Assembly (NCBI GenBank): GCA_965230045.1
Contig: OZ245940.1
Span: forward strand, 8,058 to 72,057
Direction: 5' to 3'
Source of the DNA: Bacteroidales bacterium
Lineage (GTDB): Bacteria > Bacteroidota > Bacteroidia > Bacteroidales > WRLA01
DNA: 64,000 nt
Part shown: positions 27,454 through 48,857 of the stretch, in pieces
Numbering within the stretch: position 1 is the first letter of the stretch
Layout of the letters: every line of letters begins with the position of its first letter
The notes under the pieces: model-generated
Seen by the model: the letters and a program-made list of their open reading frames with translations, nothing else
The model's database searches: none
Told to the model about the DNA's origin: nothing
Translations under genes and position numbers: made by a program

Positions 27454-27464
27454 AATATTTTTGT

Positions 27465-34869: not shown

Positions 34870-35217
34870 ATGGATTATACAAATCAAAAAAGCAGAAGCC
34901 TGTTCTTTAACGAGAAAGGTAAAGTGCATCAGGCATTAGTTGATACAATTATATATATCGAATGTACTGGCAGTATATCCTCTATACACCTCCTTGATCA
35001 AAACAAATGCATTCACTGTTGTGAACCACTAAAAGATATCGAGGAACGTTTAGATGGGCTTAATTTTTATAGGATCAATAGAAATACTTTGCTCAATCTG
35101 AGATATTTCTCAAAATTTGTATCCGGGGAAAAAAGACTTATTCAAATCCTTAATGGTGAAGAATTAAAAGTTTCCAGAAGGCGCTGGCAAGAAATCCGAA
35201 ATATGCTAAAACAATAA
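34870..35217 (+). CDS. Stand-alone LytTR DNA-binding domain regulator
   Basis: 115 aa. ...IIYIECTGSISSIHLLDQNKCIHCCEPLKDIEERLDGLNFYRINRNTLLNLRYF... matches the LytTR pattern. There is no receiver domain. Confidence 0.8.
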   Translation: MDYTNQKSRSLFFNEKGKVHQALVDTIIYIECTGSISSIHLLDQNKCIHCCEPLKDIEERLDGLNFYRINRNTLLNLRYFSKFVSGEKRLIQILNGEELKVSRRRWQEIRNMLKQ

Positions 35218-35318
35218 ACCGCTCATTTATAAAAACGAACCGTTCATCCCTTAAAACATACCGCTTATCAAATAAAACGACCATTTGAATAAAATCTTAA
35301 TATGAATACATATCTTTG
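35217..35318 (+). promoter_or_regulatory. Four phased direct repeats (candidate LytTR sites) plus a Bacteroidetes-type -7 box, cassette 1
   Basis: AACCGCTCAT (35217), AACCGTTCAT (35238), TACCGCTTAT (35259) and GACCATTTGA (35279) are spaced 21/21/20 bp. TATCTTTG (TAnnTTTG) lies at 35311-35318, and a fifth copy AACCATTCAT at 35345. Confidence 0.5.
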
Positions 35319-35719
35319 TTTTTGTATAATTATGCTAAGATATGAACCATTCATTTAGATATAAAGTCCGACAGCTTGTTTTAAAATGGAGTTATGCTTT
35401 CAGGGACAATAGAATGCGTTCCGGTCATTGTGACATTAAATTTATAACGGATCATTGCTTGTCTCCGGACTACCACAATAGACCTATAAGAACAATCTTG
35501 CTCAAAAATGACAGCGGAAATGGATTTATTAAATTTGTCTATTTAATTTCTAAGCATATTTTTATGCTGGGAAAGAATAAGTTCGACTGACTATACCGTT
35601 TCCGGATACATTAGAACCCGACCGGAACGGCATAATGTAGAATATACGTATTAAATGGGCTCTGCAATAACAAGTTACAGTATTAGAAAATTTATGAATT
35701 GGATTAAAAATCTTATAAT

Positions 35720-35929
35720 ATGAAAAAGAAAAAATTAAGTTTAAATAAAGTTAAAGTTGCAAAGCTGCAAGATACCAAGATGAATAATGTTATTGGAGGG
35801 AATTTGGCTGAACCAACCCATACATGTCGTGAAACACAAGTTACGTGTATGCTAACTTGCTTAGATCCTGACTCAATAGTGGCTTGTGAATTATCAAGTC
35901 CTTGTACAACTCTGTTTACTACCAATTAA
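35720..35929 (+). CDS. lanA: Lanthipeptide-type precursor peptide 1 (GG leader)
   Basis: Leader MKKKKLSLNKVKVAKLQDTKMNNVIGG. The 42-aa core has 5 Cys and 12 Ser/Thr. It sits upstream of a LanC gene. Confidence 0.8.
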   Translation: MKKKKLSLNKVKVAKLQDTKMNNVIGGNLAEPTHTCRETQVTCMLTCLDPDSIVACELSSPCTTLFTTN

Positions 35930-35959: not shown

Positions 35960-35984
35960 GGGTGTCCATAAAGGACACCCTTTT
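35960..35984 (+). terminator. Hairpin plus T4 immediately after precursor gene 1 (candidate leaky terminator/attenuator)
   Basis: GGGTGTCC-ataaa-GGACACCC followed by TTTT. Confidence 0.5.
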
Positions 35985-36000
35985 ACAATATCAGCATTAT

Positions 36001-37344
36001 ATGAAAAGATTATATTTATTATTAGTACTACTTTCTACGTATCAATTACTTTTCTCACAAAACAATACCGTTGTGAAAGGAACCGTAATTGAAGAAAATA
36101 CCGGGCAACCATTGCCCAATGTAGCCATCCAGATTTGGCCGGGCAGCAAATTCGGAAGCATAAGCAACAAAGAAGGAAGGTTTAAAATCAACACAGACAA
36201 AGATAGCATAACATTGAAGTTCTCTCACATCTCGTCCGTGCCGAAACTATTAAAAGTCAATGCTAAAGCCGTGTCAGACTCCAACCTCCTTGTTACATTG
36301 AGTCCGTTTTCATACACCCTTGATGCCGTGGAAATCAGCGAAGAGAGATATGAAACGATCTATAAAAAACCCAATCAATCGGTTATTGATTACGAAATTT
36401 ACGATCACCGCATCTACTTCCTGCTGAAAGATTACTCCAATAGGAAATACCAGCTGATTTCGGTTGATGAAAACCTTAGGGACACAATCTTTAGCACTCC
36501 TCCCGGCAAGCCCAGGGGAATTATTATTGATTTTTATGGCAACCTGGATATTGTTTCAAAATCGAATTCTGTTTATCAGATTATTATTGAAAACGGCCAG
36601 ATTAACTATCTGGAACCCTTCAATTATTCAAAACTCGAAAAAGTAAATGAACTATATGATTTCAAAATTGACAGCAATTATTATTTTTCTGAATATAAGA
36701 CAAAAATCAATGATAAAATCTGCTACTACACAATAAACAGGAGCACCAAAAATATTTTTCACACCATTATAGACGATAAGAAAGTTGATTATATTTTTCA
36801 AGAACTACGGTTTTTATTGCCAAAGAAATTTTTTAACTCTGGTGTTCCTCCTGGAGATGAGAGAAGAGCCTTTATTAATAATATGTATGACAATCACGAA
36901 ATTACCTTTGATCTAAATTATCATTACAACAACATATGGAATGTATTCTTCAATATTGAAAATGAAATATATATCATTGATAACATCAAAAACAAGCTAT
37001 TAAAGTTTGATAAAAGAGGCAAGCTCGTCTCAGAGCTCAACATAACACACAGCAATGATGATGAAAAAGCTTTCAGTTTGCTGGAAATGGAAGAAGGGCG
37101 GATATGGAAGGACAAGGCATTGATAGACAACTGCAATAACGGAAAAGCATATTTCTTATGGAAACAGGGCGCCAGAACCGAGCTTTATTCATTAGATCTC
37201 AAGAGCGGCGAGATCTCATTTATTGAAACACTGCCCCATGTTTTCCCCATTAAAATAAAGGTGTATAACAACACCATTTATTATTTATACCAGAAAATTG
37301 GCAACAGCAGGAATTATGGGCTTTATAGAATGTATATAAATTAA
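36001..37344 (+). CDS. Secreted protein X1: CarboxypepD_reg-like N-domain plus an uncharacterised beta-rich (propeller-like) domain
   Basis: Signal peptide MKRLYLLLVLLSTYQLLFSQ. VKGTVIEENTGQPLPNVAIQIWPGSKFGSISNKEGRFKI resembles a carboxypeptidase-regulatory-like fold. Later repeats such as EIYIIDNIKNKLLKFDKRGKLV resemble NHL/6-bladed propeller strands. Confidence 0.6.
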   Translation: MKRLYLLLVLLSTYQLLFSQNNTVVKGTVIEENTGQPLPNVAIQIWPGSKFGSISNKEGRFKINTDKDSITLKFSHISSVPKLLKVNAKAVSDSNLLVTLSPFSYTLDAVEISEERYETIYKKPNQSVIDYEIYDHRIYFLLKDYSNRKYQLISVDENLRDTIFSTPPGKPRGIIIDFYGNLDIVSKSNSVYQIIIENGQINYLEPFNYSKLEKVNELYDFKIDSNYYFSEYKTKINDKICYYTINRSTKNIFHTIIDDKKVDYIFQELRFLLPKKFFNSGVPPGDERRAFINNMYDNHEITFDLNYHYNNIWNVFFNIENEIYIIDNIKNKLLKFDKRGKLVSELNITHSNDDEKAFSLLEMEEGRIWKDKALIDNCNNGKAYFLWKQGARTELYSLDLKSGEISFIETLPHVFPIKIKVYNNTIYYLYQKIGNSRNYGLYRMYIN

Positions 37345-37354
37345 GAATAGATTG

Positions 37355-38527
37355 ATGAATGTGGATTTGCTATTAAAAAAAGTGTACGAATCATTGTCGC
37401 CTGTAAATGAGGTAAGTGTTCATGGATTTTATTCTGATACTTCGGGAATCTCCCTTTTCCTTTTTTATTATTCCTTAATGCTAAATGATGAAAAGTGTTA
37501 CAATAAAGCGGTAATGCTTCTTGAAAAAACTTTGATGTCTTATTACCAAACCAGAATTGCGCCTTCTGACATTGCCAGATTGGGTTGGCTTTTACTAAAT
37601 CTTGATAGTAATGATTTTTTAGAGACTGATATTAATGAATTGATTGAGAAGAGTGTGAATAAAGTTTTATTCGAAAAAGTTTTGGATTATCTAAAAAATG
37701 ACAATTACGACTTCTTGCATGCTGCACTTGGTATCATTCAGTACTTTTTGAGCAAAAATGATATAGAAAGTCGGTTCTATGTTTCAGAATTTGTTGATGA
37801 ATTTGCAGAAAAGGCAGAAAGGGTAAAAGATAATGAGCTGAAATGGCTGTCAACATTAGACATCAGAACAAAAACAAAAGGCTATAATATCAGCATGTCG
37901 CACGGTCTGGCAAGCATTATCACTATGCTGAGCAAGATATACAAACAGGGAATTAACCAGGATAAAACGAAGTACTTACTTGAAGGAGCCGTGAATTATC
38001 TGCTGCAACAAAAATTGCCCAATGGCAAGTATATTTCTGTTTTCCCAAACTTTGCCATAGAAAGCATGAAAAATTTGGCCCCGAGCCGTCTTGCCTGGTG
38101 TTATGGCGATCTTGGCATTTCTGTAGCAATATGGCATGCATCACAGGCGCTTGGGCGAAAAGATTGGGAAGAAAAAGCCATTAACATTCTGCTCCACTCT
38201 GCCCAGCGAAGGGATTTGAAAGAAAACAGCGTAATAGATGCAGGGCTTTGCCATGGTACAGCTGGCATTGCACATATTTATAACCGTATGTATGGCTATA
38301 CGGGTGTTGAAGAACTGAAAGAAGCTTCTGAATACTGGTTCGGCCAAACCCTTAAAATGGCACGCTTTGAGGATGGTTTGGCGGGTTACAAGGCCTGGCA
38401 TGGGCTTGATAAAGGATGGAAAAATGAGACAGGACTGCTGGAAGGAATTGCAGGCATTGGTCTTGCCATGATTTCTGCTGTTTCGGATATAGAGCCTGCA
38501 TGGGACGAATGTTTGTTGTTAAGTTAG
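37355..38527 (+). CDS. lanC: LanC-like lanthipeptide cyclase 1
   Basis: The motifs SMSHGLASI (catalytic His), LAWCYGDLG (WCxG, Zn Cys) and LCHGTAGI (CHG, Zn Cys/His) are at LanC-typical spacing. About 390 aa. Confidence 0.85.
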   Translation: MNVDLLLKKVYESLSPVNEVSVHGFYSDTSGISLFLFYYSLMLNDEKCYNKAVMLLEKTLMSYYQTRIAPSDIARLGWLLLNLDSNDFLETDINELIEKSVNKVLFEKVLDYLKNDNYDFLHAALGIIQYFLSKNDIESRFYVSEFVDEFAEKAERVKDNELKWLSTLDIRTKTKGYNISMSHGLASIITMLSKIYKQGINQDKTKYLLEGAVNYLLQQKLPNGKYISVFPNFAIESMKNLAPSRLAWCYGDLGISVAIWHASQALGRKDWEEKAINILLHSAQRRDLKENSVIDAGLCHGTAGIAHIYNRMYGYTGVEELKEASEYWFGQTLKMARFEDGLAGYKAWHGLDKGWKNETGLLEGIAGIGLAMISAVSDIEPAWDECLLLS

Positions 38528-38578
38528 ATTGAGATGCTGGAGGCACTGAAAAGAACGCCGAAATATGCTAAAACAATA

Positions 38579-38680
38579 AACCGCTCATTTATAAAAATGA
38601 ACCGTTCATCCCTTAAAACATACCGTTTATCAAATAAAACGACCATTTGAATAAAATCTTAATATGAATACATACCTTTG
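38579..38680 (+). promoter_or_regulatory. Phased direct repeats plus -7 box, cassette 2
   Basis: The same four repeats occur at identical spacing, with TACCTTTG at 38673-38680. The block is preceded by a copy of the last about 44 nt of lytTR. Confidence 0.5.
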
Positions 38681-39081: not shown

Positions 39082-39282
39082 ATGAAAAAGAAAAAAATAA
39101 AATTGGTTCTTACTAAAAGGACTATATCAAATTTGCAAGATTTTGAAATGAAACGGGTTCTTGGAGGAGAAGAGCCTACGAAAAATGTCACCTGCGCTAC
39201 ATGCATAGAAACTAAATATCCCGCATGTGGATGGTCTGGCTGTTGGGGGCCACGCACTTGTGCAATTACAACTACAGATTAG
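39082..39282 (+). CDS. lanA: Lanthipeptide-type precursor peptide 2 (GG leader, divergent)
   Basis: Leader MKKKKIKLVLTKRTISNLQDFEMKRVLGG. The 37-aa core EEPTKNVTCATCIETKYPACGWSGCWGPRTCAITTTD has 5 Cys and 9 Ser/Thr. Confidence 0.8.
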   Translation: MKKKKIKLVLTKRTISNLQDFEMKRVLGGEEPTKNVTCATCIETKYPACGWSGCWGPRTCAITTTD

Positions 39283-39296
39283 TTATCCTATTTTTG

Positions 39297-39340
39297 ACCT
39301 CCAATTGTGAGTATAATAGTATCACCATTGGAGGTTATTT
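39297..39340 (+). terminator. Hairpin after precursor gene 2
   Basis: ACCTCCAAT...ATTGGAGGT (39297-39335) followed by TATTT. Confidence 0.4.
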
Positions 39341-39393: not shown

Positions 39394-40758
39394 TTGAAAA
39401 AAAAGATATTTAAATTTTTGTTTACTGCTTTATTAATATCAACAGTACAAGTTGGAGTATTTGGGCAATCTTCTATAATAGTTACAGGTGTTGTTAGAAA
39501 TAATCCTGATGTAAATATCTCAGTTTTAGAAACAAGTTATGGAACTATCACTAATGAAACTGGGCACTACTCTTTGGAGGTTTTTGCAGAAGCTGAGAAA
39601 ACGCAATTACTCTTCTCAAAAATTGGATATAGGGACACAATTGTACAGCTACGAAAAGAAGATATTAATATAGACACAATTTTATTAAATATTACACTAA
39701 ATAAACATTCATACCTCCTTCCGGAATTTAAGGTTAAGTCCAGCCCATATTTTTTCAGTACTTCAAACTCTATTATTCTCGATATTGAATTCATTGATAA
39801 TTTGCTGTTTGTATTAAATCGTAAGCAAAATAGATCCGAGCTTATTTTATTAGACGAAAATGGTAGTGTGCTATCTGTACAGCAGGTTAATAATAAGTAC
39901 AATGAAATTTTTAGAGATTGTTTCGGTAACTATGAATTAATCGGGAATGATTCGTGTTTGCAGTTGCATTATAATTCTTTGGATACGTCATTCAATGCAG
40001 TCGATAAATTTACAACTGCAGCTTTTAATAAAAAAATTAAACCCTTCGTTTTAAACCTTGGTTGTATGTTTCTAACTAAAGATTATTTTGAAAAAAACAG
40101 CGCAATTGTGAGCAAACATCACAACCAGAAAGTTAATTACTATTATATTGACACTTGTAAGCCCGTAAAAAATAAAAAATTACTGGTTAGCTTCTTTGAT
40201 TCTGTGGCTTATAATATTGCTGCCAGTTATTATTCGGATATAATTTCATTGTATTATGCGACAACACCGTCTAGCCAGAATCTTATAGAGTCTGGTGTCT
40301 GGAATGGAAATATTCTAAAGCTTATTAACAATAACCATAGATTGTTTAATTTAATTTCTTGGTACTTGTCAGTAGAAGCCAAGCCTGTTGAAATTGATGT
40401 GTTTGTTGATAACAACGAAATAATTTTTTATAATCATCAGAATTTCACTATCCTCAGATATAATAAATCTTTCGTTCTTATGGATAAAGGGACTGTATTT
40501 ATGCAGAATGGAGTTAAAATAGATAATATTTTGCAAGATGATATAACCGGAACTATATATGCTTCACAACTTAAGAATGGAATTAATTATATTGGTAAAT
40601 TTGATATAAAAAGCGGAAAAGTACGTAAGCAAGTTAAGTCACATACAACTCCATTTCCTAAAATATTCAGAATCCATAATAATGCTGTGTACTGCGTCTA
40701 CTATGATAGTATTAAAAGAAGAAGTACTGTTATCAGAAAGTCACTATATGAAAGATAA
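39394..40758 (+). CDS. Secreted protein X2 (divergent paralog of X1/X3)
   Basis: Same length class and architecture. It has a signal peptide and VTGVVRNNPDVNISVLETSYGTITNETGHYSL (CarboxypepD_reg-like). The C-terminus ...IHNNAVYCVYYDS...VIRKSLYE parallels ...VYNNTIYYLYQKI...LYRMYIN. The start codon is TTG or a nearby alternative. Confidence 0.55.
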   Translation: MKKKIFKFLFTALLISTVQVGVFGQSSIIVTGVVRNNPDVNISVLETSYGTITNETGHYSLEVFAEAEKTQLLFSKIGYRDTIVQLRKEDINIDTILLNITLNKHSYLLPEFKVKSSPYFFSTSNSIILDIEFIDNLLFVLNRKQNRSELILLDENGSVLSVQQVNNKYNEIFRDCFGNYELIGNDSCLQLHYNSLDTSFNAVDKFTTAAFNKKIKPFVLNLGCMFLTKDYFEKNSAIVSKHHNQKVNYYYIDTCKPVKNKKLLVSFFDSVAYNIAASYYSDIISLYYATTPSSQNLIESGVWNGNILKLINNNHRLFNLISWYLSVEAKPVEIDVFVDNNEIIFYNHQNFTILRYNKSFVLMDKGTVFMQNGVKIDNILQDDITGTIYASQLKNGINYIGKFDIKSGKVRKQVKSHTTPFPKIFRIHNNAVYCVYYDSIKRRSTVIRKSLYER

Positions 40759-40765
40759 TAAAATT

Positions 40766-41496
40766 ATGAAAATTCTTTTGGATAAGAAGTTAGATGAAAT
40801 TTCTAGGGTCTTATTGAACTCAAATTTAACAATAACACAATCAGAAAATTTGCTTGGTGACAAATCAGGTATTGCTCTTTTCTTGTTCCAATATAGCCAA
40901 TTTAAAAATGAAGCAAAATATTACGACTTTGCTTATGAAATACTTGAAAGCATTGCCAATGTATATCGCGAAAATCAAATTTTACCAACTTCAATATCAA
41001 AATTTGAATGGTTACTATTGTATCTGGAGAAACAAGGAATTATTGATTTAGATATTGAAAATATTCATGAAGATATCGACTATCATTTATACGAAGTCGC
41101 AAATGCTTGTCTTCAAAAGTATGGTTATGATTTTTTGCACGGAGCTTTAGGTATTGTGCTTTATTTTTTGAAAAAAAATGATGATCTAACCAGTAATTTC
41201 ATATTTAATCTCATTAATACTCTAGAGCTAGTTTCTGATAAGACTCAAAGTAATATTGTTAAATGGCTTTCCGTTATTGATTATAAAACAAGTGAAACGG
41301 CATACAATATCAGCATGTCGCACGGTCTGGCAAGCATTATCGCTATGCTGAGCAAGATATACAAACAGGGAATTAATCAGGATAAAACGAAGTACTTACT
41401 TGAAGGAGCCGTGAATTATCTGCTGCAACAAAAATTGCCCAATGGCAAGTATATTTCTGTTTTCCCAAACTTTGCCATAGAAAGCATGAAAAATTT
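40766..41496 (+). pseudogene. lanC: lanC2, 5' fragment (interrupted by IS66)
   Basis: The N-terminal about 180 codons are divergent. From about 41300 (YNISMSHGLASII...) the sequence is nearly nucleotide-identical to lanC1. The frame is cut after ...ESMKNL by the IS end GTAAGCC. Confidence 0.85.
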
Positions 41497-41565
41497 GTAA
41501 GCCTTCAGCAAAAGGCATATTGCACAAGCTTTTAAAGCTTCCGTTCTTTGCTGCAAAAAAGCAAT

Positions 41566-41853
41566 ATGCAAAAAGAACAAAGAAGAGCAGAGATGAAAAC
41601 ACTGGTGGATCAATGGCATACCAGTGGCCAAAGCAAAAGATCCTTTGCCGAATCACACAAAATCTGCTATCACACTTTCCTTTATTGGTATCATAAATTT
41701 GAACAGGAAGAAAGCTTGCCTGATGGCCATGGGTTCATTGAGCTTTCCGGGACTCCAGCTGCAGGGATTATCATCCGTTATCCCAATGGTATCGAGCTCA
41801 ACCTTCCGGGCAATGTGCCCTTGTCCTATCTCAAATCGCTCACCGGCCAATAA
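41566..41853 (+). CDS. tnpA: IS66 accessory protein TnpA
   Basis: Small HTH-like protein in the first position of the IS66 operon. Its stop overlaps the tnpB start (TAATG). Confidence 0.7.
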   Translation: MQKEQRRAEMKTLVDQWHTSGQSKRSFAESHKICYHTFLYWYHKFEQEESLPDGHGFIELSGTPAAGIIIRYPNGIELNLPGNVPLSYLKSLTGQ

Positions 41854-42218
41854 TGTTCAGCTTAACAGCCAGCCGCTATTACCTGTACCGCCAGCCCACC
41901 GATATGCGCAAGAGCTTTGATGGGCTGTATGGCATTGTGCGCAACAAACTGGACAAAAACCCAATGAGCGGTGATGTTTTCCTGTTCATCAACAAAAAGC
42001 GCGACCGCATAAAACTGCTGCGCTGGGAAAGCGGAGGTTTTGTGCTGTTCTACAAAAGGCTCGAAAAAGGCACTTTTCACCTGCCGGACACATCTGCTGC
42101 GCACGCCTCCCACCAGCTGATCGACTACCCTGAACTTGTAATGATAATCAATGGTATTTCCATGAAAAATGCAAGGAAATACCCACGTTTTTTCCCACAT
42201 GAAAATGTTGGTAAATAG
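41853..42218 (+). CDS. tnpB: IS66 Orf2 (TnpB)
   Basis: ...YLYRQPTDMRKSFDGLYGIV...GDVFLFINKKRDRIKLLRWESGGFVLFYKRLEKGTF is the hallmark IS66 TnpB pattern. Confidence 0.85.
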   Translation: MFSLTASRYYLYRQPTDMRKSFDGLYGIVRNKLDKNPMSGDVFLFINKKRDRIKLLRWESGGFVLFYKRLEKGTFHLPDTSAAHASHQLIDYPELVMIINGISMKNARKYPRFFPHENVGK

Positions 42219-42265
42219 CGCTTAAAATATAGTCAGCCAAGAGGTTACTTCCGTATCTTTGCCTC

Positions 42266-43720
42266 ATGGCAAGTCAGGAAAATATAACTATATCAAAAGC
42301 GGAATATGATGCAATGCAACAGAAAATATTCCTGCTTCAGCATGAACTTGTCCAGTTGAGGCGTGCGATCTATGGAGCCAAAAGCGAACGGCATATCGCG
42401 GCAGACCCCAACCAGGGCGTGCTTTTTGACGTGCCTGCACAGGAGAAAGAGCCGGAAAAGGAGCAGATCAGCTATACGCGCAATAAAAAGCAGTCCAAAA
42501 AACAGCCCGTGCGCTTAGAACTGCCCGCCCACCTGCCGCGCCATGAAATCATCATCGAACCCCAAAACCTGCCCAAAGGCGCCCATAGGGTCAACGTAAA
42601 AATCACCGAAGTACTTGATTATGTGCCCGGGACTTTTCGTGTGATCCGTTATATACGTCCTTATTATGCCGTAGCAGGCCAGGGCGAAAGCACCCAAATG
42701 ATTTGTGCAGAACTACCTTCGCGCGCCTTGTTCAAAAGCAATGCCTCAGAAGGCCTGCTCTCTTATGTGACTGTCAGCAAATTTGTTGACCACCTGCCAT
42801 TCTACCGCCTTGTCAAGATGTTCAAGCGCATGGGGATCGAAATAGCCGAATCAACAATAAACGGCTGGTTTAGCGGGGTTTGCAGATTGCTTGAGCCGCT
42901 TTACGATGCCCTGAAAAAAGAAATCATGAGGACCGATTACCTGATGGCAGACGAAACGCCTATAAAGGTATTGACCAAAGACAAGCCCGGGGCATCGCAC
43001 AAAGGGTATCACTGGGTTTATTACGACCCGCTTAAAAAACTGGCCCTGTTCGATTACCGGAAAGGCCGCGGGCGGGAAGGCCCGGATGAGATGCTGGAAA
43101 ACTATAGTGGATATTTGCAAACCGATGGCTACACCGCTTACGACAACCTAAAAAACAAAGCCGAAATCACCCAATTGGCCTGCATGGCGCATGCACGCAG
43201 GTATTTTGAGAAAGCCAAGGACAATGATGCTGCACGCAGTGAATATGCGCTGGGGCAGATAAGAAAACTGTATGCCATTGAACGTCAGGCAAGTGAGCAA
43301 GAGCTACAGCCGGAGGAGGTCAAAGCATTGCGGCAAAAGGAATCAATGCCCATATTGAACGAAATGGAAAGCTGGCTTAAGGAAGAAGTTTATAAAGTAG
43401 CGCCCAAAAGCGCAATCGGCAAAGCCATAGCTTACAGCCTGAAATTATGGGGGCGCCTGATCCGTTATATTGAAGACGGAAGGCTGCGCATTGACAACAA
43501 CCTGGTTGAAAACAGCATCAGGCCGGTAGCCATAGGGCGCAAGAATTACCTGTTTGCGGGTTCGCACAATGCAGCCCAGCACGCGGCTATGATCTACTCC
43601 TTTTTTGCCAGCTGCAAAATCCAAAATGTCGAACCCTTCGAGTGGCTCAAGCAAACATTAGAAAAAATCCAGGAACACCCAGCCAACAAGCTCCATCAAC
43701 TCCTGCCCGGACAGATTTAA
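42266..43720 (+). CDS. tnpC: IS66-family DDE transposase (TnpC)
   Basis: N-terminal coiled-coil/zipper, ...YLMADETPIKVL...HKGYHWVY...GYLQTDGYTAYD...CMAHARRYF...RIDNNLVENSIRPVAIGRKNYLFAGS. Confidence 0.9.
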   Translation: MASQENITISKAEYDAMQQKIFLLQHELVQLRRAIYGAKSERHIAADPNQGVLFDVPAQEKEPEKEQISYTRNKKQSKKQPVRLELPAHLPRHEIIIEPQNLPKGAHRVNVKITEVLDYVPGTFRVIRYIRPYYAVAGQGESTQMICAELPSRALFKSNASEGLLSYVTVSKFVDHLPFYRLVKMFKRMGIEIAESTINGWFSGVCRLLEPLYDALKKEIMRTDYLMADETPIKVLTKDKPGASHKGYHWVYYDPLKKLALFDYRKGRGREGPDEMLENYSGYLQTDGYTAYDNLKNKAEITQLACMAHARRYFEKAKDNDAARSEYALGQIRKLYAIERQASEQELQPEEVKALRQKESMPILNEMESWLKEEVYKVAPKSAIGKAIAYSLKLWGRLIRYIEDGRLRIDNNLVENSIRPVAIGRKNYLFAGSHNAAQHAAMIYSFFASCKIQNVEPFEWLKQTLEKIQEHPANKLHQLLPGQI

Positions 43721-43771
43721 AACATTATCCGGTTATATGCAAGATGCTGTTCGCCGTAGGCTTACAAAAAT

Positions 43772-44224
43772 TTGGCCCCGAGCCGTCTTGCCTGGTGCTA
43801 TGGAGATCTCGGCATTTCAGTGGCAATTTGGCATGCATCACAGGCGCTTGGGCGAAAAGATTGGGAAGAAGAAGCCATTAACATTCTGCTCCACTCTGCC
43901 CAGCGAAGGGATTTGAAAGAAAACAGCGTAATAGATGCAGGGCTTTGCCATGGTACAGCTGGCATTGCACATATTTATAACCGTATGTATGGCTATACGG
44001 GTGTTGAAGAACTAAAAGAAGCTTCTGAATACTGGTTCGGCCAAACCCTTAAAATGGCACGCTTTGAGGATGGTTTGGCGGGCTACAAGGCCTGGCATGG
44101 GCTTGATAAAGGATGGATAAACGAACCTGGACTGCTGGAAGGAATTGCCGGCATTGGTCTTGCCATGATTTCTGCTGTTTCGGATATAGAGCCTGCATGG
44201 GACGAATGTTTGTTGTTAAGTTAG
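43772..44224 (+). pseudogene. lanC: lanC2, 3' fragment
   Basis: It continues lanC2 in frame after the TSD (APSRLAWCYGDLG...CHGTAGI...ECLLLS). It is nearly identical to the 3' parts of lanC1 and lanC3. Confidence 0.85.
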
Positions 44225-44275
44225 ACTGAGATACTGAAGGCGCTGGCAGGAACTCCGAAATATGCTAAACCAATA

Positions 44276-44778: not shown

Positions 44779-45003
44779 ATGAAAAAGAAAAAATTAAGTT
44801 TAAATAAAGTTAAAGTTGCAAAGCTGCAAGATACCAAGATGAATAATGTTATTGGAGGGAATTTGGCTGAACCAACCGATACATGTCGTGAAACAGAGCT
44901 TACCTGTATACTAACTTGTCTAGATCCTAACTCATTGGATGTATGCGAAACATCAAGTCCTTGTTTTACTCATTGGACCGATTGTAATACTTGTTGGTGT
45001 TAA
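44779..45003 (+). CDS. lanA: Lanthipeptide-type precursor peptide 3 (leader identical to peptide 1)
   Basis: The 27-aa leader is identical to peptide 1. The 47-aa core has 8 Cys and 12 Ser/Thr and diverges from peptide 1 mainly in its C-terminal third (...SSPCFTHWTDCNTCWC). Confidence 0.8.
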   Translation: MKKKKLSLNKVKVAKLQDTKMNNVIGGNLAEPTDTCRETELTCILTCLDPNSLDVCETSSPCFTHWTDCNTCWC

Positions 45004-45019
45004 TGAAATATAGTAATTA

Positions 45020-45044
45020 GGGTGTCCATAAAGGGCGCCCTTTT
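45020..45044 (+). terminator. Hairpin plus T4 after precursor gene 3
   Basis: GGGTGTCC-ataaa-GGGCGCCC followed by TTTT. The two A-to-G changes relative to cassette 1 keep pairing only as G-U in plus-strand RNA. Confidence 0.45.
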
Positions 45045-45060: not shown

Positions 45061-46401
45061 ATGAAAAAATTATATTTATTATTAGTAATACTATCTGCGC
45101 ATCAATTACTTTTCTCACAAAACAATTCCGTTGTGAAAGGAACCGTAATTGAAGAAAATACCGGGCAACCACTTGCCAATGTAGCCATCCAGATTTGGCC
45201 GGGCAGCAAATTCGGAAGCATAAGCGACAAAGAAGGAAGGTTTAAAATCAACACAGACAGAGATAGCATAACATTGAAGTTCTCTCACATCTCATCCAAA
45301 CCGAAACTGCTAAAAATCAATATCAAAACCGTTTCAGATTCCAATCTGGTGGTTACATTAATGCCATTTTCATACACCCTTGATGCAGTGGAAATTAGCG
45401 AAGAAAAATATGAAACGATCTATAAAAAACCCAACCAATCGGTTATTGATTATGAAATTTATAATCACCGCATCTACTTCCTGCTGAAAGATTACGCCAA
45501 TATGAAATACCAGCTGATTTCGGTAGATGAAAACCTTAGAGACACAATCTACAGTAGCCCTCCCGGCAAGCCCCGGGGAATTATTATTGATTTTTATGGC
45601 AACCTGGATATTGTTTCAAAATCGAATTCTGTTTATCAGATTATTATTGAAAACGATCAAATAAACTATCTGGAACCCTTCAATTATTCAAAGCTCAAGA
45701 AAGTAAACGAACTGTACGATTTTAAGATTGATAGCAATTATTATTTTTCTGAGTTCCAAACAAAAATAAAAGACATAATTAATTATGGAAAAATTAATAG
45801 AGGAAGTAAGAATATTTTCTATTCACTATTTGATGAGGATAAGATAAACTATTTTTATGATGAGATGAGATTTTTGGGATTGTTTAATAAGTGTTATTCA
45901 GCTCCACCTGGAGAAAAAAGAAGGGATATAGTTACAAAGCTTTATGACAGGCAAGAGATAAACTTCACTGTAAACTTTATGTATAACCACATTTCAAACG
46001 CCTATTTTCATATAAAGGACAGTATATACATTATAGATAATATCAATAACAAGCTATTGAAGTTTGATAAAAACGGCAAGCTCGTCTCAGAGCTCAACAT
46101 AACACACATCCATGACGATGAAAAAGCTTACAAGCTTTTGGAAAGAGAAGAAGGGCGGATATGGAAAGACAAGGCATTGATAGACAATTGCAATAATGAA
46201 AAAGCATATTTTTTATGGAAAGAGGGTGCAAAAACCGATCTATACAGCCTTGACCTTAGCGGTGGAGAGATCTCATTTATTGAAACACTGCCCCATGTTT
46301 TCCCCATTAAAATAAAGGTGTATAACAACACCATTTATTATTTATACCAGAAAATTGGCAACAGCAGGAATTATGGGCTTTATAGAATGTATATAAATTA
46401 A
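45061..46401 (+). CDS. Secreted protein X3 (paralog of X1)
   Basis: It is collinear with X1. The N- and C-terminal thirds are near-identical, and the central segment (about 45790-46050) is strongly divergent. Confidence 0.6.
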   Translation: MKKLYLLLVILSAHQLLFSQNNSVVKGTVIEENTGQPLANVAIQIWPGSKFGSISDKEGRFKINTDRDSITLKFSHISSKPKLLKINIKTVSDSNLVVTLMPFSYTLDAVEISEEKYETIYKKPNQSVIDYEIYNHRIYFLLKDYANMKYQLISVDENLRDTIYSSPPGKPRGIIIDFYGNLDIVSKSNSVYQIIIENDQINYLEPFNYSKLKKVNELYDFKIDSNYYFSEFQTKIKDIINYGKINRGSKNIFYSLFDEDKINYFYDEMRFLGLFNKCYSAPPGEKRRDIVTKLYDRQEINFTVNFMYNHISNAYFHIKDSIYIIDNINNKLLKFDKNGKLVSELNITHIHDDEKAYKLLEREEGRIWKDKALIDNCNNEKAYFLWKEGAKTDLYSLDLSGGEISFIETLPHVFPIKIKVYNNTIYYLYQKIGNSRNYGLYRMYIN

Positions 46402-46411
46402 AAATGAATTG

Positions 46412-47584
46412 ATGAATGTGGATTTGCTATTAAAAAAAGTGTACGAATCATTGTCGTCTGTAAATGAGGTAAGTGTTCATGGATTTTATTCTGATACTTC
46501 GGGAATCTCCCTTTTCCTTTTTTATTATTCCTTAATGCTAAATGATGAAAAGTGTTACAATAAAGCGGTAATGCTTCTTGAAAAAACTTTGATGTCTTAT
46601 TACCAAACCAGAATTGCGCCTTCTGACATTGCCAGATTGGGTTGGCTTTTACTAAATCTTGATAGTAATGATTTTTTAGAGACTGATATTAATGAATTGA
46701 TTGATAAGAGTGTGAATAAAGTTTTATTCGAAAAAGTTTTGGATTATCTAAAAAATGACAATTACGACTTCTTGCATGGTGCACTTGGTATCATTCAGTA
46801 CTTTTTGAGCAAAAATGATATAGAAAGTCGGTTCTATGTTTCAGAATTTGTTGATGAATTTGCAGAAAAGGCAGAAAGGGCAAAAGATAATGAGCTGAAA
46901 TGGCTGTCAACATTAGACATCAGAACAAAAACAAAAGGCTATAATATTAGCATGTCGCACGGTCTGGCAAGCATTATCGCTATGCTGAGCAAGATATACA
47001 AACAGGGAATTAATCAGAATAAAACAAAGTACTTACTTGAAGGAGCCATGAATTATCTGCTGCAACAAAAATTGCCCAATGGCAAGTATATTTCTGTTTT
47101 CCCAAACTTTGCCATAGAAAGCATGAAAAATTTGGCCCCGAGCCGTCTTGCCTGGTGTTATGGCGATCTTGGCATTTCTGTAGCAATATGGCATGCCTCA
47201 CAAGCCCTGGGGCGAAAGGATTGGGAAGAAGAAGCCATTAGAATTCTACTCCATTCTGCCCGTCGAAGGGATTTGAAAGAAAACAGCGTAATAGATGCAG
47301 GGCTTTGCCATGGTACAGCTGGCATTGCACATATTTATAACCGTATGTATGGCTATACGGGTGTTGAAGAACTAAAAGAAGCTTCTGAATACTGGTTCGG
47401 CCAAACCCTTAAAATGGCACGCTTTGAGGATGGTTTGGCGGGTTACAAGGCCTGGCATGGGCTTGATAAAGGATGGAAAAATGAACCGGGACTACTGGAA
47501 GGAATCGCAGGCATTGGTCTTGCCATGATTTCTGCTGTTTCGGATATAGAACCTGCATGGGACGAATGTTTGTTGTTAAGTTAG
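46412..47584 (+). CDS. lanC: LanC-like lanthipeptide cyclase 3
   Basis: Near-identical to lanC1, with the same HG / WCYG / CHG motifs. Confidence 0.85.
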   Translation: MNVDLLLKKVYESLSSVNEVSVHGFYSDTSGISLFLFYYSLMLNDEKCYNKAVMLLEKTLMSYYQTRIAPSDIARLGWLLLNLDSNDFLETDINELIDKSVNKVLFEKVLDYLKNDNYDFLHGALGIIQYFLSKNDIESRFYVSEFVDEFAEKAERAKDNELKWLSTLDIRTKTKGYNISMSHGLASIIAMLSKIYKQGINQNKTKYLLEGAMNYLLQQKLPNGKYISVFPNFAIESMKNLAPSRLAWCYGDLGISVAIWHASQALGRKDWEEEAIRILLHSARRRDLKENSVIDAGLCHGTAGIAHIYNRMYGYTGVEELKEASEYWFGQTLKMARFEDGLAGYKAWHGLDKGWKNEPGLLEGIAGIGLAMISAVSDIEPAWDECLLLS

Positions 47585-47590: not shown

Positions 47591-48490
47591 ATGGATGATA
47601 TCATGCTTTATAAGCCTTTTAATAAGTACATTTTGCGTACCCCCACCTTTCCTTTAAGTTTTGTTTGTGAGTTAACTTCAGGGGATGAAATTAGAGAAGC
47701 AGAGTTAAAACATATTTTTGCTGATCCTCTTGTTCAAGAGGCTGTATTTATCGCCTCACAACCTCTGTATCATGAAATGGAAAAATGGCTACAGGACGAT
47801 ACGGCAAAGGACAGAAAAGGGAAAAGAAAGAATGAAAAACTTAAAGAAAGCCTGCTGCGTTATTTGTTTCGTATGTCCACGCGATGCACTCCTTTTGGCA
47901 TGTTTGCAGGCTTTTCCGCAGGATCTTTTAGTGATATTAGTAAAATCGAGCTTAAATCTAAAATAGATTGTGTTTGTCATACCCGTTTGGATATGAATTA
48001 TTTGTGTGCTTTGGCATTTGATTTATCAAAAAACAGAGATATTAGAAAGCATCTAAAATTTTCACCAAACTCAAGTATATATAAAATCGGCAATCAAATC
48101 AGATATGTCGAGTATTACTATGTAAACAGTCATCGTAAACATCATATTGTTGCTGTCGATAATTCGGAATATATTACTGCTGTATTGCAAAAGGCCATTA
48201 AAGGAGAAAGGATTGACAATCTTTCCGAAATACTGGTGGATGAAGAGATTTCAATGAATGATGCCGTATCATTTGTTAACGAAATGATTGACGAACAACT
48301 CCTGATAAGTGAATTGGAACCACGTGTTACAGGAGCTGATTTTCTTGTTCAAATAATAGAAATCCTTTCCAGGATGCCCCAAGATTCCGGGATTTCTACC
48401 GTACTAAAAAACCTTGTACAAATTTACAAGGAATTAAATCAACTCAAACAGCTACCCCCGTTCCCGCGCGTGTCCTCACGCGTGGCTTAG
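47591..48490 (+). pseudogene. lanB: Lanthipeptide dehydratase LanB, N-terminal about 290 codons only (truncated)
   Basis: ...YKPFNKYILRTPTFPL...LLRYLFRMSTRCTPFGMFAGFSAG...HTRLDMNYL... resembles the start of the Lant_dehydr_N domain. Homology stops where the hairpin element begins (about 48450). Full-length glutamylation domains are several-fold longer. Confidence 0.7.
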
Positions 48491-48842
48491 CAAGTCAGGC
48501 TAAGCAAACCCGTATATTCCGTAAGTCACAAAAGCAGCTTTCTTTTAACAGCTCTTGTTGCCTTGATATTTTAATGCGCATAAAAAAAGTTTTTGATGCG
48601 CATGAAAAATTATTTCTACGCCTGTTATCATCAATTTAAATACTTGAAGTAATAGCAATAAAGTGATTTCACAAAAAATCAGGTACATTCACCAAAATCC
48701 AGTCGAAGAGGGCCTGGTGTTTTATCCTGAGGATTATTTGTACTTAGTGCATTGGATTATGCAGGAAAAAAAGGGATACTCGAAGATGTTATTGTGGTTG
48801 ATATTTAAGCAGTACCGCGCGTGAGGACACGCGCGGTAGCTG
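48449..48842 (+). mobile_element. Remnant of a REP-flanked Y1 (RAYT/IS200-like) transposase: two inverted hairpins around a degraded gene fragment
   Basis: The hairpins CCGCGCGTG-tcct-CACGCGTGG (48464-48485) and CCGCGCGTG-agga-CACGCGCGG (48815-48836) are in inverted orientation. Outer CAGCTACC / GGTAGCTG motifs flank them. Between them, 48651-48808 translates (with one frameshift) to ...VISQKIRYIHQNPVEEGLVFYPEDY / ..LSALDYAGKKGILEDVIVVDI*, which is the typical C-terminus of Y1_Tnp-type transposases. Confidence 0.5.
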
Positions 48843-48857
48843 GGGGAAACACTTTTA

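What the first reader, a model, noticed from the sequence alone, without database searches (positions are those of the whole stretch)
36001..37344. Uncharacterised secreted protein family (X1/X2/X3) is a fixed member of every precursor-LanC cassette
X1 (36001-37344), X2 (39394-40758) and X3 (45061-46401) always sit between the precursor and lanC. All three have a cleavable signal peptide and an N-terminal CarboxypepD_reg-like beta-sandwich (VKGTVIEENTGQPL..ISNKEGRFKI). The remaining about 330 aa form a beta-rich region with propeller-like strands (IYIIDNIKNKLLKFDKRGKLV, AYFLWK, IYYLYQK). I recognise no protease, transporter or known LanI/LanFEG immunity signature. X divergence tracks precursor divergence: X1 and X3 go with the related peptides 1 and 3, and X2 is very distant and goes with the unrelated peptide 2. 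That pattern fits a peptide-specific partner, such as periplasmic immunity, a chaperone or receptor, or leader processing.
Basis: inference. Interest (0 to 1): 0.8.

Follow-up and report, generated by a model that had tools for sequence, protein, structure and literature searches.

The report
TonB-box propeller partner of lanthipeptide cassettes
Each lanthipeptide cassette in this Bacteroidota gene cluster carries an uncharacterised exported protein, built from the front end of a TonB-dependent receptor joined to a beta-propeller, which is swapped together with its peptide and is probably its peptide-specific periplasmic partner (immunity is the leading guess).

Summary
X1 (36001-37344), X2 (39394-40758) and X3 (45061-46401) are real genes under purifying selection (dN/dS about 0.2). 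Each lies between a class I lanthipeptide precursor and a lanC. X1 and X3 are 80% identical. X2 is about 22% identical to them but homologous over its full length (hhalign 98.9%).

The first ~120 residues are the N-terminal module of SusC/TonB-dependent transporters: signal peptide, invariant Gln, NTE beta-sandwich and a conserved Ton-box motif (LxEVxI). A six-bladed propeller-like domain follows, and no Pfam or NCBIfam model covers it.

In cassette 2 the core peptide, X and the first half of LanC form one swapped module. X1 and X3 differ mainly in a segment (residues 236-320) that holds a helical insert. X stays intact where the cluster has decayed; in this window LanB is truncated, LanT is deleted and LanC2 is split by IS66. 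Cassette-type X genes also form orphan arrays with no lan genes nearby.

The wider family has at least 364 clusters at 50% identity and is mostly not next to RiPP genes. A related contig has a different secreted protein in the same slot.

Best reading: a peptide-type-specific periplasmic binder, probably immunity, possibly coupled to TonB. This is inference only. Uptake or sensing is a serious rival.

The parts
34870..35217 (+). LytTR-domain-only protein (115 aa) at the head of cassette 1
   Evidence: Pfam PF04397, E 4e-14. A copy heads each cassette in the related locus L033.
35218..35719 (+). Conserved upstream region of the cassette. It repeats at 38528-39081 and 44225-44778 and holds an 82-97 aa ORF with no family match.
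   Evidence: The region is nearly identical in all three cassettes. There is no Pfam, NCBIfam or Rfam match. The stop position varies between copies, so it is probably regulatory DNA.
35720..35929 (+). Precursor peptide 1 (69 aa, GG leader, five-Cys core)
   Evidence: NCBIfam lant_leader_L1a, 34.9 bits against a cut-off of 22.
35960..35984 (+). Terminator-like hairpin plus U-run between precursor 1 and X1
   Evidence: 8-bp G+C stem. The fold is -18.4 kcal/mol with z -4.3.
36001..37344 (+). X1 (447 aa), the exported NTE / Ton-box / propeller protein
36001..36057 (+). X1 signal peptide (residues 1-19, cleavage before Gln20)
   Evidence: The sequence is MKRLYLLLVLLSTYQLLFS|Q. Gln20 is invariant in 65 family members. 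AF2 predicts a helix at 2-17.
36073..36330 (+). X1 NTE / CarboxypepD_reg-like beta-sandwich (residues 25-110)
   Evidence: PF13715, E 2e-12. It aligns with the NTE of SusC, RagA and TBDT structures.
36310..36342 (+). X1 Ton-box-like linker motif (residues 104-114, SYTLDAVEISE)
   Evidence: It aligns with the Ton box of SusC 8aa4_A (LDEVVVVGYG) and TBDT 9gbc_A (LNEVVVST), and with that of a Plug-containing TBDT (TLDAVQIQG). L107, V110 and I112 are conserved in 151, 149 and 162 of 166 members. AF2 pLDDT is below 50 for residues 104-119.
36376..37341 (+). X1 C-terminal six-bladed propeller-like domain (residues 126-447)
   Evidence: AF2 pLDDT 86.5, pTM 0.84, with six groups of 3-4 strands. Foldseek hits are all propellers. 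There is no Pfam or NCBIfam match.
36706..36960 (+). Type-specific segment of X1 (residues 236-320: outer strands of blade 3 plus a helical insert)
   Evidence: Between X1 type and X3 type, dN is about 0.4 and dS is saturated here, while the flanks are nearly identical. Within a type dN is 0.01-0.06. The helices lie at residues 259-309.
37352..38527 (+). LanC1 (391 aa)
   Evidence: PF05147, E 2e-34.
39082..39282 (+). Precursor peptide 2 (66 aa, same leader, unrelated core)
   Evidence: lant_leader_L1a, 31.5 bits.
39295..39337 (+). Hairpin between precursor 2 and X2
   Evidence: z -2.4.
39394..40758 (+). X2 (454 aa), a distant paralogue with the same architecture
40766..41500 (+). LanC2, 5' part. 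The first ~520 nt are divergent and the rest is 85-100% identical to LanC1.
41501..43771 (+). IS66 element inserted in LanC2 (ORFs 41548-41853, 41853-42218, 42266-43720)
   Evidence: Pfam TnpB_IS66 and DDE_Tnp_IS66.
43772..44224 (+). LanC2, 3' part
   Evidence: PF05147 profile positions 220-350.
44779..45003 (+). Precursor peptide 3 (74 aa)
   Evidence: lant_leader_L1a, 34.7 bits.
45020..45044 (+). Terminator-like hairpin between precursor 3 and X3
   Evidence: z -4.8.
45061..46401 (+). X3 (446 aa)
   Evidence: 80% identical to X1. PF13715, E 6e-13.
46409..47584 (+). LanC3 (391 aa, 97% identical to LanC1)
47591..48490 (+). Truncated LanB (first 299 of about 744 residues)
   Evidence: PF04738 profile positions 1-242 of 649. 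Collinearity with the intact cluster L008 ends at window position 48458.
48458..48846 (.). Deletion scar. It replaces 5.3 kb that in L008 hold the rest of LanB, the LanB C-terminal protein, LanT-C39 and most of HlyD. It contains a remnant of a REP-associated tyrosine transposase.
   Evidence: blastn against L008. NCBIfam REP_Tyr_transpos fragment.
48858..49355 (+). HlyD-type membrane-fusion protein, C-terminal remnant (165 aa)
   Evidence: phmmer against the L008 HlyD, E 9e-104. Pfam HlyD_3 matches the intact L008 protein.

Best explanation
X1, X2 and X3 are exported through Sec into the periplasm. Each has two parts. The first is an N-terminal module inherited from SusC/TonB-dependent transporters: an NTE beta-sandwich followed by a flexible linker that carries a Ton-box motif. 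The second is a six-bladed beta-propeller with a variable segment that holds a helical insert. Each X is the extracytoplasmic partner specific to the core peptide encoded just upstream. It is transcribed with lanC by read-through of a hairpin that follows the precursor gene. I propose that the propeller, mainly through its type-specific segment, binds the mature lanthipeptide of its own type in the periplasm and so protects the cell, which is immunity by sequestration. I also propose that the Ton box tethers X to TonB, either to place it beneath the outer-membrane entry route or to let TonB pull the complex apart. Shown here: export signals, domain architecture, homology and conservation of the Ton box, co-inheritance of core and X as one module, purifying selection, retention in decayed clusters, and orphan arrays. 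Inferred only: peptide binding, immunity, and any interaction with TonB.
For: Location: signal peptide with an invariant Gln at the cleavage site, no lipobox and no T9SS tail. X therefore cannot act on the cytoplasmic LanB/LanC steps. Architecture: the NTE plus Ton box aligns with solved SusC, RagA and TBDT chains (E 6e-9 to 3e-4) and with Plug-containing TBDTs. The motif is conserved in about 90-98% of 166 family members, although the linker is modelled as disordered. The C-terminal propeller is modelled at pLDDT 86.5. Specificity: the divergent block of cassette 2 runs from the leader/core junction, through X2, to about nt 520 of lanC2, while the promoter region, leader and the rest of lanC stay 85-100% identical. 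X1 and X3 differ mainly in residues 236-320 (dN about 0.4, against 0.01-0.06 within a type), and the flanks look homogenised. X type follows core type in other contigs (L001, L034, L036). Value independent of production: in this window LanB is truncated, LanT is deleted and LanC2 is interrupted by an IS, yet all three X genes are intact with dN/dS about 0.2. L033 and L001 show the same pattern. Orphan arrays: a trio of X genes orthologous to cassette types Xb, Xc and Xd, in the same order and with no precursor or lanC, lies at one chromosomal site in two genomes. Two of its members are also encoded in the window's own genome. A Bacteroidales MAG carries four X genes, three of them closest to cassette types, with no lan genes nearby. 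The intact cluster L008 has no LanI/LanFEG-like gene, so an immunity function is otherwise unaccounted for.
Against: There is no experimental evidence and no model of a complex. It is not known whether these peptides are antibacterial. The only characterised Bacteroidota class I lanthipeptides, the pinensins, are reported as antifungal and bind zinc at nanomolar affinity (PMC13532221). Most of the family is not next to RiPP genes, so its ancestral role may be a general envelope function. The precursors are also retained in the decayed clusters, so retention of X may only reflect recent decay. The correlation between core and X is expected for any two tightly linked genes. The variable module of cassette 2 also includes half of lanC, so the coupling is not exclusive to X. 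The window's genome has both cassette and orphan copies, so the orphan trio is not simply the signature of a non-producing cheater. A Ton-box motif is short, and its function outside a TBDT is untested.
Confidence: 0.4

Rival explanations
1. X is an uptake or sensing receptor. It would be a TonB-associated periplasmic binding protein that receives its cognate lanthipeptide after import through an outer-membrane transporter. The peptide would then be a metallophore or a signal rather than a toxin. Orphan arrays would let a cell use or eavesdrop on peptides made by neighbours.
For: This explains the same genomic patterns: specificity for the peptide type, retention without production, and orphan arrays. 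A Ton box fits an import pathway naturally. Pinensins bind Zn(II) at nanomolar affinity (PMC13532221). A LytTR regulator heads the cassettes. From my own knowledge, E. coli FhuD and BtuF have been reported to contact TonB. In two of the non-lan loci a TBDT gene lies just downstream of the X array (L012, L011).
Against: No TBDT and no inner-membrane importer is found in the intact cluster L008 or beside the orphan trios. Only 2 of about 30 loci have a TBDT gene within 10 kb. Metal binding or signalling by these particular peptides is unknown.
Confidence: 0.2
2. X is a general envelope protein family, for instance a modulator of TonB or of the BAM complex as BamP is. Several of its lineages became resident in lan clusters. 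X would then protect or tune an envelope machine rather than bind the peptide.
For: The family is large and mostly unlinked to RiPP genes. It often occurs as tandem arrays among housekeeping genes, and sometimes beside an ECF sigma factor, a membrane protein and an OMP. The layout resembles BamP: an NTE-like domain, an extended linker and a C-terminal domain. BamP's linker occupies the BamA lateral seam, and BamP homologues protect against the RiPP darobactin (PMC12611786). X1-type and Xb-type proteins hit the NCBIfam BamP model at 33-38 bits.
Against: The BamP hits are far below the cut-off of 230 bits. The solved BamP chain scores only 19 bits against the X N-terminal profile, while TBDTs score 39. 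A general role does not explain why X is swapped together with the core peptide. It also does not explain why paralogues keep one sharply type-specific segment.
Confidence: 0.2
3. X is a maturation or export helper. It would act as a periplasmic chaperone that hands the peptide on after LanT/HlyD, or as an enzyme that trims or modifies the exported peptide, for example by removing the N-terminal NLAEPT-type stretch left after GG cleavage.
For: X is co-transcribed with lanC in the biosynthetic cassette. Some six-bladed propellers are enzymes, and the Foldseek hits include LRE and SMP30 lactonases. The cores carry a short conserved N-terminal stretch after GG.
Against: No catalytic His, Ser or Cys is conserved. 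The near-invariant residues of the propeller are one Asp at the start of most blades plus Gln, Tyr and Gly, which looks like a structural repeat. Orphan arrays, and intact X genes in clusters that cannot make peptide, are hard to explain for a biosynthetic helper. A LanT-HlyD exporter would normally bypass the periplasm.
Confidence: 0.1
4. X is a fragment or pseudogene of a TonB-dependent receptor.
For: The N-terminal ~120 residues are homologous to the N-termini of TBDTs.
Against: X has no Plug domain and no barrel. Hundreds of full-length relatives of 430-460 aa share the same C-terminal domain. That domain folds confidently as a propeller. Selection is purifying.
Confidence: 0.01

Closest known systems
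SusC/RagA-type TonB-dependent transporters of Bacteroidota (N-terminal extension plus Ton box)
   Same: Both have a signal peptide followed by Gln, a PF13715 NTE beta-sandwich, and immediately after it the Ton-box motif L-[DEQ]-E-V-x-[VI]. The homology is detectable by sequence (E 6e-9 to 1e-6 against solved chains).
   Different: X has no plug and no 22-strand barrel. It is 430-460 aa long and soluble, with a beta-propeller where the transporter body would be.
BamP, the periplasmic accessory subunit of the Flavobacterium johnsoniae BAM complex (PMC12611786)
   Same: Both are periplasmic proteins with a CarboxypepD_reg-like N-domain, an extended strand-forming linker and a C-terminal domain. 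BamP occurs as several paralogues that differ in one segment and protect against a RiPP antibiotic, darobactin.
   Different: Sequence similarity is weak: 19 bits to chain 9n2d_E, and 33-38 bits to the NCBIfam model against a cut-off of 230. BamP is about 250 aa with a small C-domain, not a propeller. No link between X and BamA has been shown.
TolB (Tol-Pal system)
   Same: The design logic is the same (my own knowledge). TolB is a periplasmic protein of about 430 aa with a small N-domain and a six-bladed propeller that binds a partner. A short disordered motif docks by strand addition onto the energised TolA/TonB-type protein, which then pulls the complex apart.
   Different: There is no detectable sequence relationship. 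No TolB_N or PD40 hits were found, and TolB is not among the top Foldseek matches. The motif in X is a Ton box placed after the N-domain, not at the N-terminus.
LanI / LanFEG lantibiotic immunity of Gram-positive producers
   Same: The proposed role is the same: a peptide-specific self-protection protein outside the cytoplasm, encoded in the biosynthetic operon.
   Different: The fold is unrelated. X has no lipobox and no ABC components. The setting is a Gram-negative periplasm, and X carries a motif for coupling to TonB.
Orphan immunity gene arrays of Bacteroidales (acquired interbacterial defence islands; my own knowledge)
   Same: Both are tandem arrays of diverged paralogues that match toxin-linked partners found elsewhere, and both lack the toxin or production genes.
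   Different: The known arrays neutralise T6SS effectors and use other protein families. No mobile-element signature was seen around the X arrays examined here.

Membership tests
TonB-dependent transporter (SusC/RagA type) | NTE (PF13715) domain after the signal peptide | tested here: met
   PF13715, E 2e-12 for X1 and 6e-13 for X3; X2 scores 29.5 bits, just under the cut-off. The region aligns with the solved NTE structure 9hfj_A and with SusC chains.
TonB-dependent transporter (SusC/RagA type) | Ton-box motif directly after the NTE | tested here: met
   The X profile segment 'sYtLdeveik' aligns with LDEVVVVGYG of 8aa4_A and LNEVVVST of 9gbc_A. The columns are conserved in 90-98% of 166 members. 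Binding to TonB was not tested.
TonB-dependent transporter (SusC/RagA type) | Plug domain (PF07715) and 22-strand beta-barrel | tested here: not met
   No Plug or TonB_dep_Rec hit in X1-X3 or in 10 diverse relatives. The C-terminal 328 aa are modelled as a propeller.
BamP (NCBIfam NF053692) | Whole-protein score above the equivalog cut-off (230 bits) | tested here: not met
   33.5 to 38.3 bits, covering only profile positions 1-134 of 251. The solved BamP chain 9n2d_E scores 19 bits, E 0.009.
BamP (NCBIfam NF053692) | Linker inserted in the lateral seam of BamA | not testable with these tools
   This needs a complex model or biochemistry.
LanI / LanFEG immunity | Lipoprotein LanI fold, or an ABC transporter LanFEG | tested here: not met
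   No lipobox Cys in the first 30 residues. No matching Pfam or NCBIfam model.
LanI / LanFEG immunity | Confers resistance to the cognate lantibiotic | not testable with these tools
   This needs expression in a sensitive strain and purified peptide.
Six-bladed beta-propeller (NHL / SMP30 / TolB-like folds) | Closed ring of six four-stranded blades | tested here: inconclusive
   DSSP shows six groups of 3-4 strands, with a helical insert between groups 3 and 4. All top Foldseek hits are propellers (probability 1.0), but TM is only 0.25-0.43 and rmsd 8-14 A. I could not inspect coordinates.
Class I lanthipeptide biosynthetic cluster (context) | Precursor with a lanthipeptide leader, LanC, LanB and an exporter | tested here: met
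   Leaders and LanC are present in the window. LanB_N, LanB_C, LanT-C39 and HlyD are intact only in the syntenic relative L008. In the window they are truncated or deleted.

The most novel reading that the evidence does not exclude
The X family would be a previously undescribed class of soluble periplasmic proteins that carry a genuine Ton box, or a BamP-like seam-binding linker. They would use an energised or essential envelope machine (TonB or BamA) as their docking point. Their diversified propellers would give peptide-type-specific protection against RiPPs in Bacteroidota. This would be the missing immunity mechanism of Gram-negative lanthipeptide producers. The tandem arrays common in gut and rumen Bacteroidales would then be collections of acquired immunity genes against neighbours' peptides.
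Probability: 0.2. Interest if true: 0.85.

Novelty: new variant of a known kind. Interest (0 to 1): 0.68.

Why it matters
[quoted passage not shown] The papers I searched name no self-protection or accessory system for these producers. A protein family that travels with the core peptide as one swappable unit is a direct experimental handle on what these peptides target and how producers cope. The Ton box on a soluble propeller is a second point of interest. If it is functional, TonB coupling would extend beyond outer-membrane barrels and imported toxins. It would also give a testable role to a large family that sources label only as hypothetical or as 'carboxypeptidase-like regulatory domain-containing protein', and that is common in gut and rumen Bacteroidales. 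In practice, X type could be used to classify and prioritise Bacteroidota lanthipeptide clusters. Orphan X arrays could mark which peptides are ecologically active in a community.

Tried and rejected
1. TBDT fragment or pseudogene: rejected. X has no plug or barrel, has hundreds of full-length relatives, is under purifying selection and has a confident propeller model.

2. BamP membership: rejected. Scores are 33-38 bits against a cut-off of 230, and the solved BamP chain scores below TBDTs. I keep BamP only as an analogy.

3. A specific structural family for the propeller: two Foldseek runs against the PDB gave only generic propellers with TM at most 0.43.

4. Pfam or NCBIfam coverage of the C-terminal domain: none in X1-X3 or in diverse relatives.

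5. The orphan trio as a decayed lan cluster: rejected. Homology to the cassettes is confined to the mature X coding region and the flanks are unrelated. The window's own genome has both sets.

6. Hidden precursors beside non-lan X genes: a leader HMM run on all small ORFs of L004-L036 found none outside the lan-type loci.

7. Consistent neighbours of non-lan X genes: the recurrent ones are housekeeping genes (adk, GH77, DeoC). ECF sigma factors and TBDTs appear only occasionally.

8. An RNA element in the conserved upstream region: no Rfam hit.

The genome scan therefore used X2-branch patterns and is biased towards rumen and gut Bacteroidales. A look-up of the trio copy P0184 found no record. 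The Pedobacter lusitanus paper is not held.

10. Literature: seven full-text searches (five of them aimed at this family) found no description of it. One myxobacterial class I cluster lists an unstudied 'carboxypeptidase regulatory-like domain' gene next to lanC (PMC11876861).

11. The two 499-aa ORFs at 13051 and 33099 are unrelated.
Full report
**1. What is in the window**

Positions 34.8-49.4 kb form a low-GC island (about 34-37% G+C in most of it, against about 44% around it). An ISNCY transposase gene (33099-34598) borders it on the left.

The island holds three tandem cassettes, all on the + strand.
- Each cassette starts with a conserved upstream region of about 550 bp.
- A precursor gene follows: 35720-35929, 39082-39282 or 44779-45003.
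- Next comes a terminator-like hairpin: 35960-35984, 39295-39337 or 45020-45044.
- The X gene follows: 36001-37344, 39394-40758 or 45061-46401.
- A lanC gene begins 8 nt after X.

The precursors match NCBIfam lant_leader_L1a above its cut-off, so these are class I lanthipeptide cassettes with GG leaders. A LytTR-only gene (34870-35217) heads cassette 1.

The cluster is decayed. LanC2 is split by an IS66 element. Comparison with a syntenic intact relative, L008, shows what is missing. L008 carries at least four cassettes, then LanB_N, LanB_C, LanT-C39 and HlyD, then the same RluA and OAD-beta genes as window positions 49420 and 50246. In the window, 5.3 kb holding most of lanB, the LanB C-terminal protein gene, lanT and most of hlyD have been replaced by 388 bp (48458-48846).

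**2. Check of the observation**

- X1 and X3 are 80% identical.
- X2 has almost no pairwise similarity to X1. Profiles built from the relatives of each still align over 403 columns (hhalign probability 98.9%, E 1.6e-17), so the three proteins belong to one family.
- All three begin with a Lys-rich stretch and a hydrophobic stretch, followed by Gln. That Gln is invariant in a 65-member alignment. From my own knowledge, this is the pattern of signal peptidase I substrates in Bacteroidota, the 'Q-rule'.
- None has a lipobox Cys, and none has a T9SS tail.
- PF13715 covers residues 25-110.
- AlphaFold2 models the whole of X1 at pLDDT 77 and the C-terminal 328 residues at pLDDT 86.5, pTM 0.84.
- The C-terminal model has six groups of 3-4 strands and a helical insert between groups 3 and 4.
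- Foldseek against the PDB returns only beta-propellers (NHL, LRE/SMP30, BamB, WD40) with TM at most 0.43. The fold class is supported, but no specific family is.
- No Pfam or NCBIfam model covers this domain in X1-X3 or in diverse relatives.
- Orthologue comparisons give dN/dS of about 0.2, the same as for LanC.

**3.

A profile of the family matches the N-termini of solved SusC and RagA proteins and of another TonB-dependent transporter. Examples are 8aa4_A at E 1e-6 and 9gbc_A at E 6e-9, 39 bits.

The match does not stop at the NTE domain. The family segment 'sYtLdeveik' aligns with high posterior probability to LDEVVVVGYG in SusC and to LNEVVVST in the TBDT. In Bt1763 this segment (DEVVVTG, directly after the NTE) is the experimentally defined Ton box (PMC7782687). 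A Plug-containing TBDT found in the homologue search reads TLDAVQIQG where X1 reads TLDAVEISE.

I counted residues at this motif in 166 family members.

| Position (X1 numbering) | Residue(s) | Members with it |
|---|---|---|
| 107 | Leu | 151 of 166 |
| 110 | Val, Ile or Phe | 149 of 166 |
| 112 | Ile or Val | 162 of 166 |

AlphaFold models the linker (residues 104-119) as disordered. Strong conservation inside a disordered linker is what one expects of a short docking motif.

X therefore consists of a signal peptide, an NTE, a Ton box and a propeller. It is the front end of a TonB-dependent receptor joined to a soluble propeller in place of the plug and barrel. It is not a receptor fragment. 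The 430-460 aa architecture is shared by hundreds of full-length relatives.

BamP is the periplasmic BAM subunit whose linker occupies the BamA seam and which protects against darobactin (PMC12611786). It has a comparable layout. It scores only 19 bits against the X N-terminal profile, and the X proteins reach only 33-38 bits against a 230-bit cut-off. I treat BamP as an analogue and not as the family of X.

**4. Evidence that X is tied to its peptide**

*(a) Mosaic structure.*
- The upstream region and the leader are nearly identical in all three cassettes.
- Cassette 2 diverges exactly at the leader/core junction.
- Identity to cassette 1 returns (85-100%) about 520 nt into lanC2.
- The core peptide, X and the first half of LanC were therefore exchanged as one block.

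*(b) A type-specific segment.*
- Between X1 type and X3 type, residues 236-320 have dN of about 0.4 and saturated dS.
- The flanking parts are almost identical within a genome (dS 0.05-0.16 in L008 and L009). This points to homogenisation everywhere except this segment.
- Within a type the segment is conserved (dN 0.01-0.06).
- The segment covers the outer strands of blade 3 and the helical insert.
- Peptides 1 and 3 have likewise similar N-terminal two-thirds and different C-terminal tails.

*(c) The pairing recurs elsewhere.*
- L036 carries a peptide-2-like core (YPACGFSGCWGARTCEITITD), an X2-like protein (38% identity) and a LanC whose gene overlaps X by 8 nt.
- L001 and L034 carry peptide-1/3-like cores with X proteins 46-56% identical to X1 and X3.
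- Across 11 pairs, X identity and core identity correlate (Mantel r 0.92, p 1e-4). Linked genes would show such a correlation anyway, so it shows a stable unit and not function.

**5. Evidence that X has value without production**
- In the window all three X genes are intact while LanB, LanT, HlyD and LanC2 are broken.
- In L033 two X genes are intact, one LanC is a remnant, and there is no LanB or LanT.
- In L001 a precursor and X persist with no LanC nearby.
- L009 and L032 carry three X genes back to back at the same chromosomal site, next to FeS-assembly genes (the suf operon in L009) on one side and the histidine ammonia-lyase and HisRS genes on the other. They have no precursor and no lanC.
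- These three genes are orthologous, in order, to cassette types Xb (66-67%), Xc/X1 (90-92%) and Xd/X3 (86-87%).
- Homology between the trio and the cassettes is confined to the mature coding region, so the trio is not a decayed cluster.
- Cluster membership shows that the window's own 5.14-Mb contig also encodes two trio-type copies, each 94% identical to a trio member in L009.
- In an unrelated Bacteroidales MAG (L010), four X genes stand together with no lan genes nearby. Three of them are closest to cassette types: Xb 50%, Xa 38% and the X2/L036 type 62%.

**6. Limits of the association**

The family is large. A profile search of 1.84 billion representative proteins finds 364 clusters at E<1e-30 and 1374 at E<1e-10. 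Sources name the relatives only as hypothetical or as 'carboxypeptidase-like regulatory domain-containing protein'.

None of the 22 genome loci retrieved with X2-branch patterns has lanC, lanB, lanT or a lanthipeptide leader within 10 kb. All 22 come from gut or rumen Bacteroidales-type MAGs. There the X genes sit in tandem arrays among housekeeping genes. An ECF sigma factor with a membrane protein and an OMP, or a TBDT, appears occasionally. This sample is biased by the search pattern.

The slot is also not reserved for X. In L034 a second precursor is followed by a secreted erythromycin-esterase-like protein (PF05139) and then by lanC.

**7. Interpretation**

X is exported, so it cannot take part in the cytoplasmic dehydration and cyclisation steps. 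The near-invariant residues of the propeller are one Asp at the start of most blades plus Gln, Tyr and Gly. This looks like a structural repeat and not a catalytic site. A specific binding role is therefore the most economical reading.

Several observations fit a peptide-specific immunity protein:
- X is swapped together with the core peptide.
- It has one sharply type-specific segment.
- It is retained in clusters that cannot produce peptide.
- It forms orphan arrays.
- The intact cluster has no LanI/LanFEG-like gene.

I give this reading 0.4.

The same patterns also fit a receptor that captures an imported peptide used as a metallophore or a signal. That reading gains weight from the Ton box and from the nanomolar zinc affinity of the pinensins (PMC13532221). 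I give it 0.2.

A general envelope role with secondary residence in lan clusters, for example BamP-like or TonB-modulating, also gets 0.2. A maturation or export helper gets 0.1.

The Ton box suggests that X works while docked on TonB, whichever role is correct. The nearest design analogue I know is TolB. It is a periplasmic six-bladed propeller whose short disordered motif engages the energised TolA protein, which then pulls TolB off its partner. This comparison is from my own knowledge, and no homology was detected.

**8. Novelty**

Seven full-text literature searches, five of them aimed at this family, found no description of it or of a soluble NTE/Ton-box/propeller protein. The large survey of lanthipeptide clusters describes the LxLxKx5L/GG leader motif and the C39 protease in Bacteroidetes class I clusters; my term search of its main text found no mention of PF13715 or of a carboxypeptidase-like protein (PMC7268733).

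I rate the finding as a new variant of a known kind: an operon-encoded, peptide-specific accessory or immunity protein, built from an undescribed protein family with an unexpected motif for coupling to TonB. All functional statements are inferences from sequence, predicted structure and comparative genomics.

Noticed in passing
window 48458-48846 (compare L008 13434-18690): The lanthipeptide cluster in this genome cannot be complete. A 5.3-kb stretch with most of lanB, the LanB C-terminal protein gene, lanT-C39 and most of hlyD is replaced by 388 bp. That stretch contains a remnant of a REP-associated tyrosine transposase (48663-48824).
   Followed up: yes
window 41501-43771: An IS66 element (three ORFs, including TnpB_IS66 and DDE_Tnp_IS66) is inserted in lanC2. 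The ends show the inverted sequence GTAAGCCT...AGGCTTAC.
   Followed up: partly
window 35218-35719, 38528-39081, 44225-44778: A region of about 550 bp upstream of every precursor is nearly identical in all three cassettes and 93% identical in the relative L008. It contains an 82-97 aa ORF with no Pfam, NCBIfam or Rfam match, and the ORF's stop position differs between copies. It is probably a regulatory region, perhaps bound by the LytTR protein.
   Followed up: partly
window 35960-35984, 39295-39337, 45020-45044: A stable G+C-rich hairpin with a U-run sits between each precursor gene and X (z -4.3, -2.4 and -4.8). It looks like the leaky terminator that sets the precursor-to-enzyme ratio in lantibiotic operons.
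   Followed up: partly
window 40766-41500 compared with 37352-38527: LanC2 is a mosaic. Its first ~520 nt are only 50-60% identical to lanC1 and the rest is 85-100% identical. The N-terminal half of LanC therefore belongs to the same swapped module as the core peptide and X, and may carry substrate specificity.
   Followed up: partly
L034 2067-2264, 2349-3614, 3644-4243: In a related metagenome contig a second GG-leader precursor is followed by a secreted erythromycin-esterase-like protein (PF05139) and then by lanC, not by X. Proteins of the same family (cluster c16) also lie beside X arrays in three rumen MAG loci (L018, L021, L028).
   Followed up: partly
L009 7231-11344; L032 8621-12737; window genome copies P0184 and P0186: An orphan trio of X genes lies at a conserved chromosomal site, next to FeS-assembly genes on one side and the histidine ammonia-lyase and HisRS genes on the other. 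Its DNA similarity to the cassette X genes starts about 40 nt inside the coding region and ends at the stop codon. This suggests copying or gene conversion of the mature coding part only.
   Followed up: partly
L004 10001-15408; L024 and L026: Some X genes not linked to lan clusters are adjacent to an ECF sigma factor, a putative membrane anti-sigma protein and a 433-aa OMP_b-brl_2 protein. This hints at envelope-stress or surface-signalling control of part of the family.
   Followed up: no
L012 13922-16387: A CarboxypepD_reg-type TonB-dependent receptor (821 aa) lies 38 nt downstream of, and in the same direction as, an array of three X genes. Its N-terminal 126 residues score 72 bits against the X family profile.
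   Followed up: partly
window 34870-35217; L033 8870-9217 and 13093-13440: A 115-aa protein consisting only of a LytTR DNA-binding domain, with no receiver domain, heads the cassettes. Its regulatory input is unknown.
   Followed up: no
window 25087-29855 and 30026-32708: Two MacB-type FtsX permease genes and a sigma-54 response regulator / histidine kinase pair flank the island. The same genes flank it in L033. I did not test whether they relate to peptide resistance.
   Followed up: no
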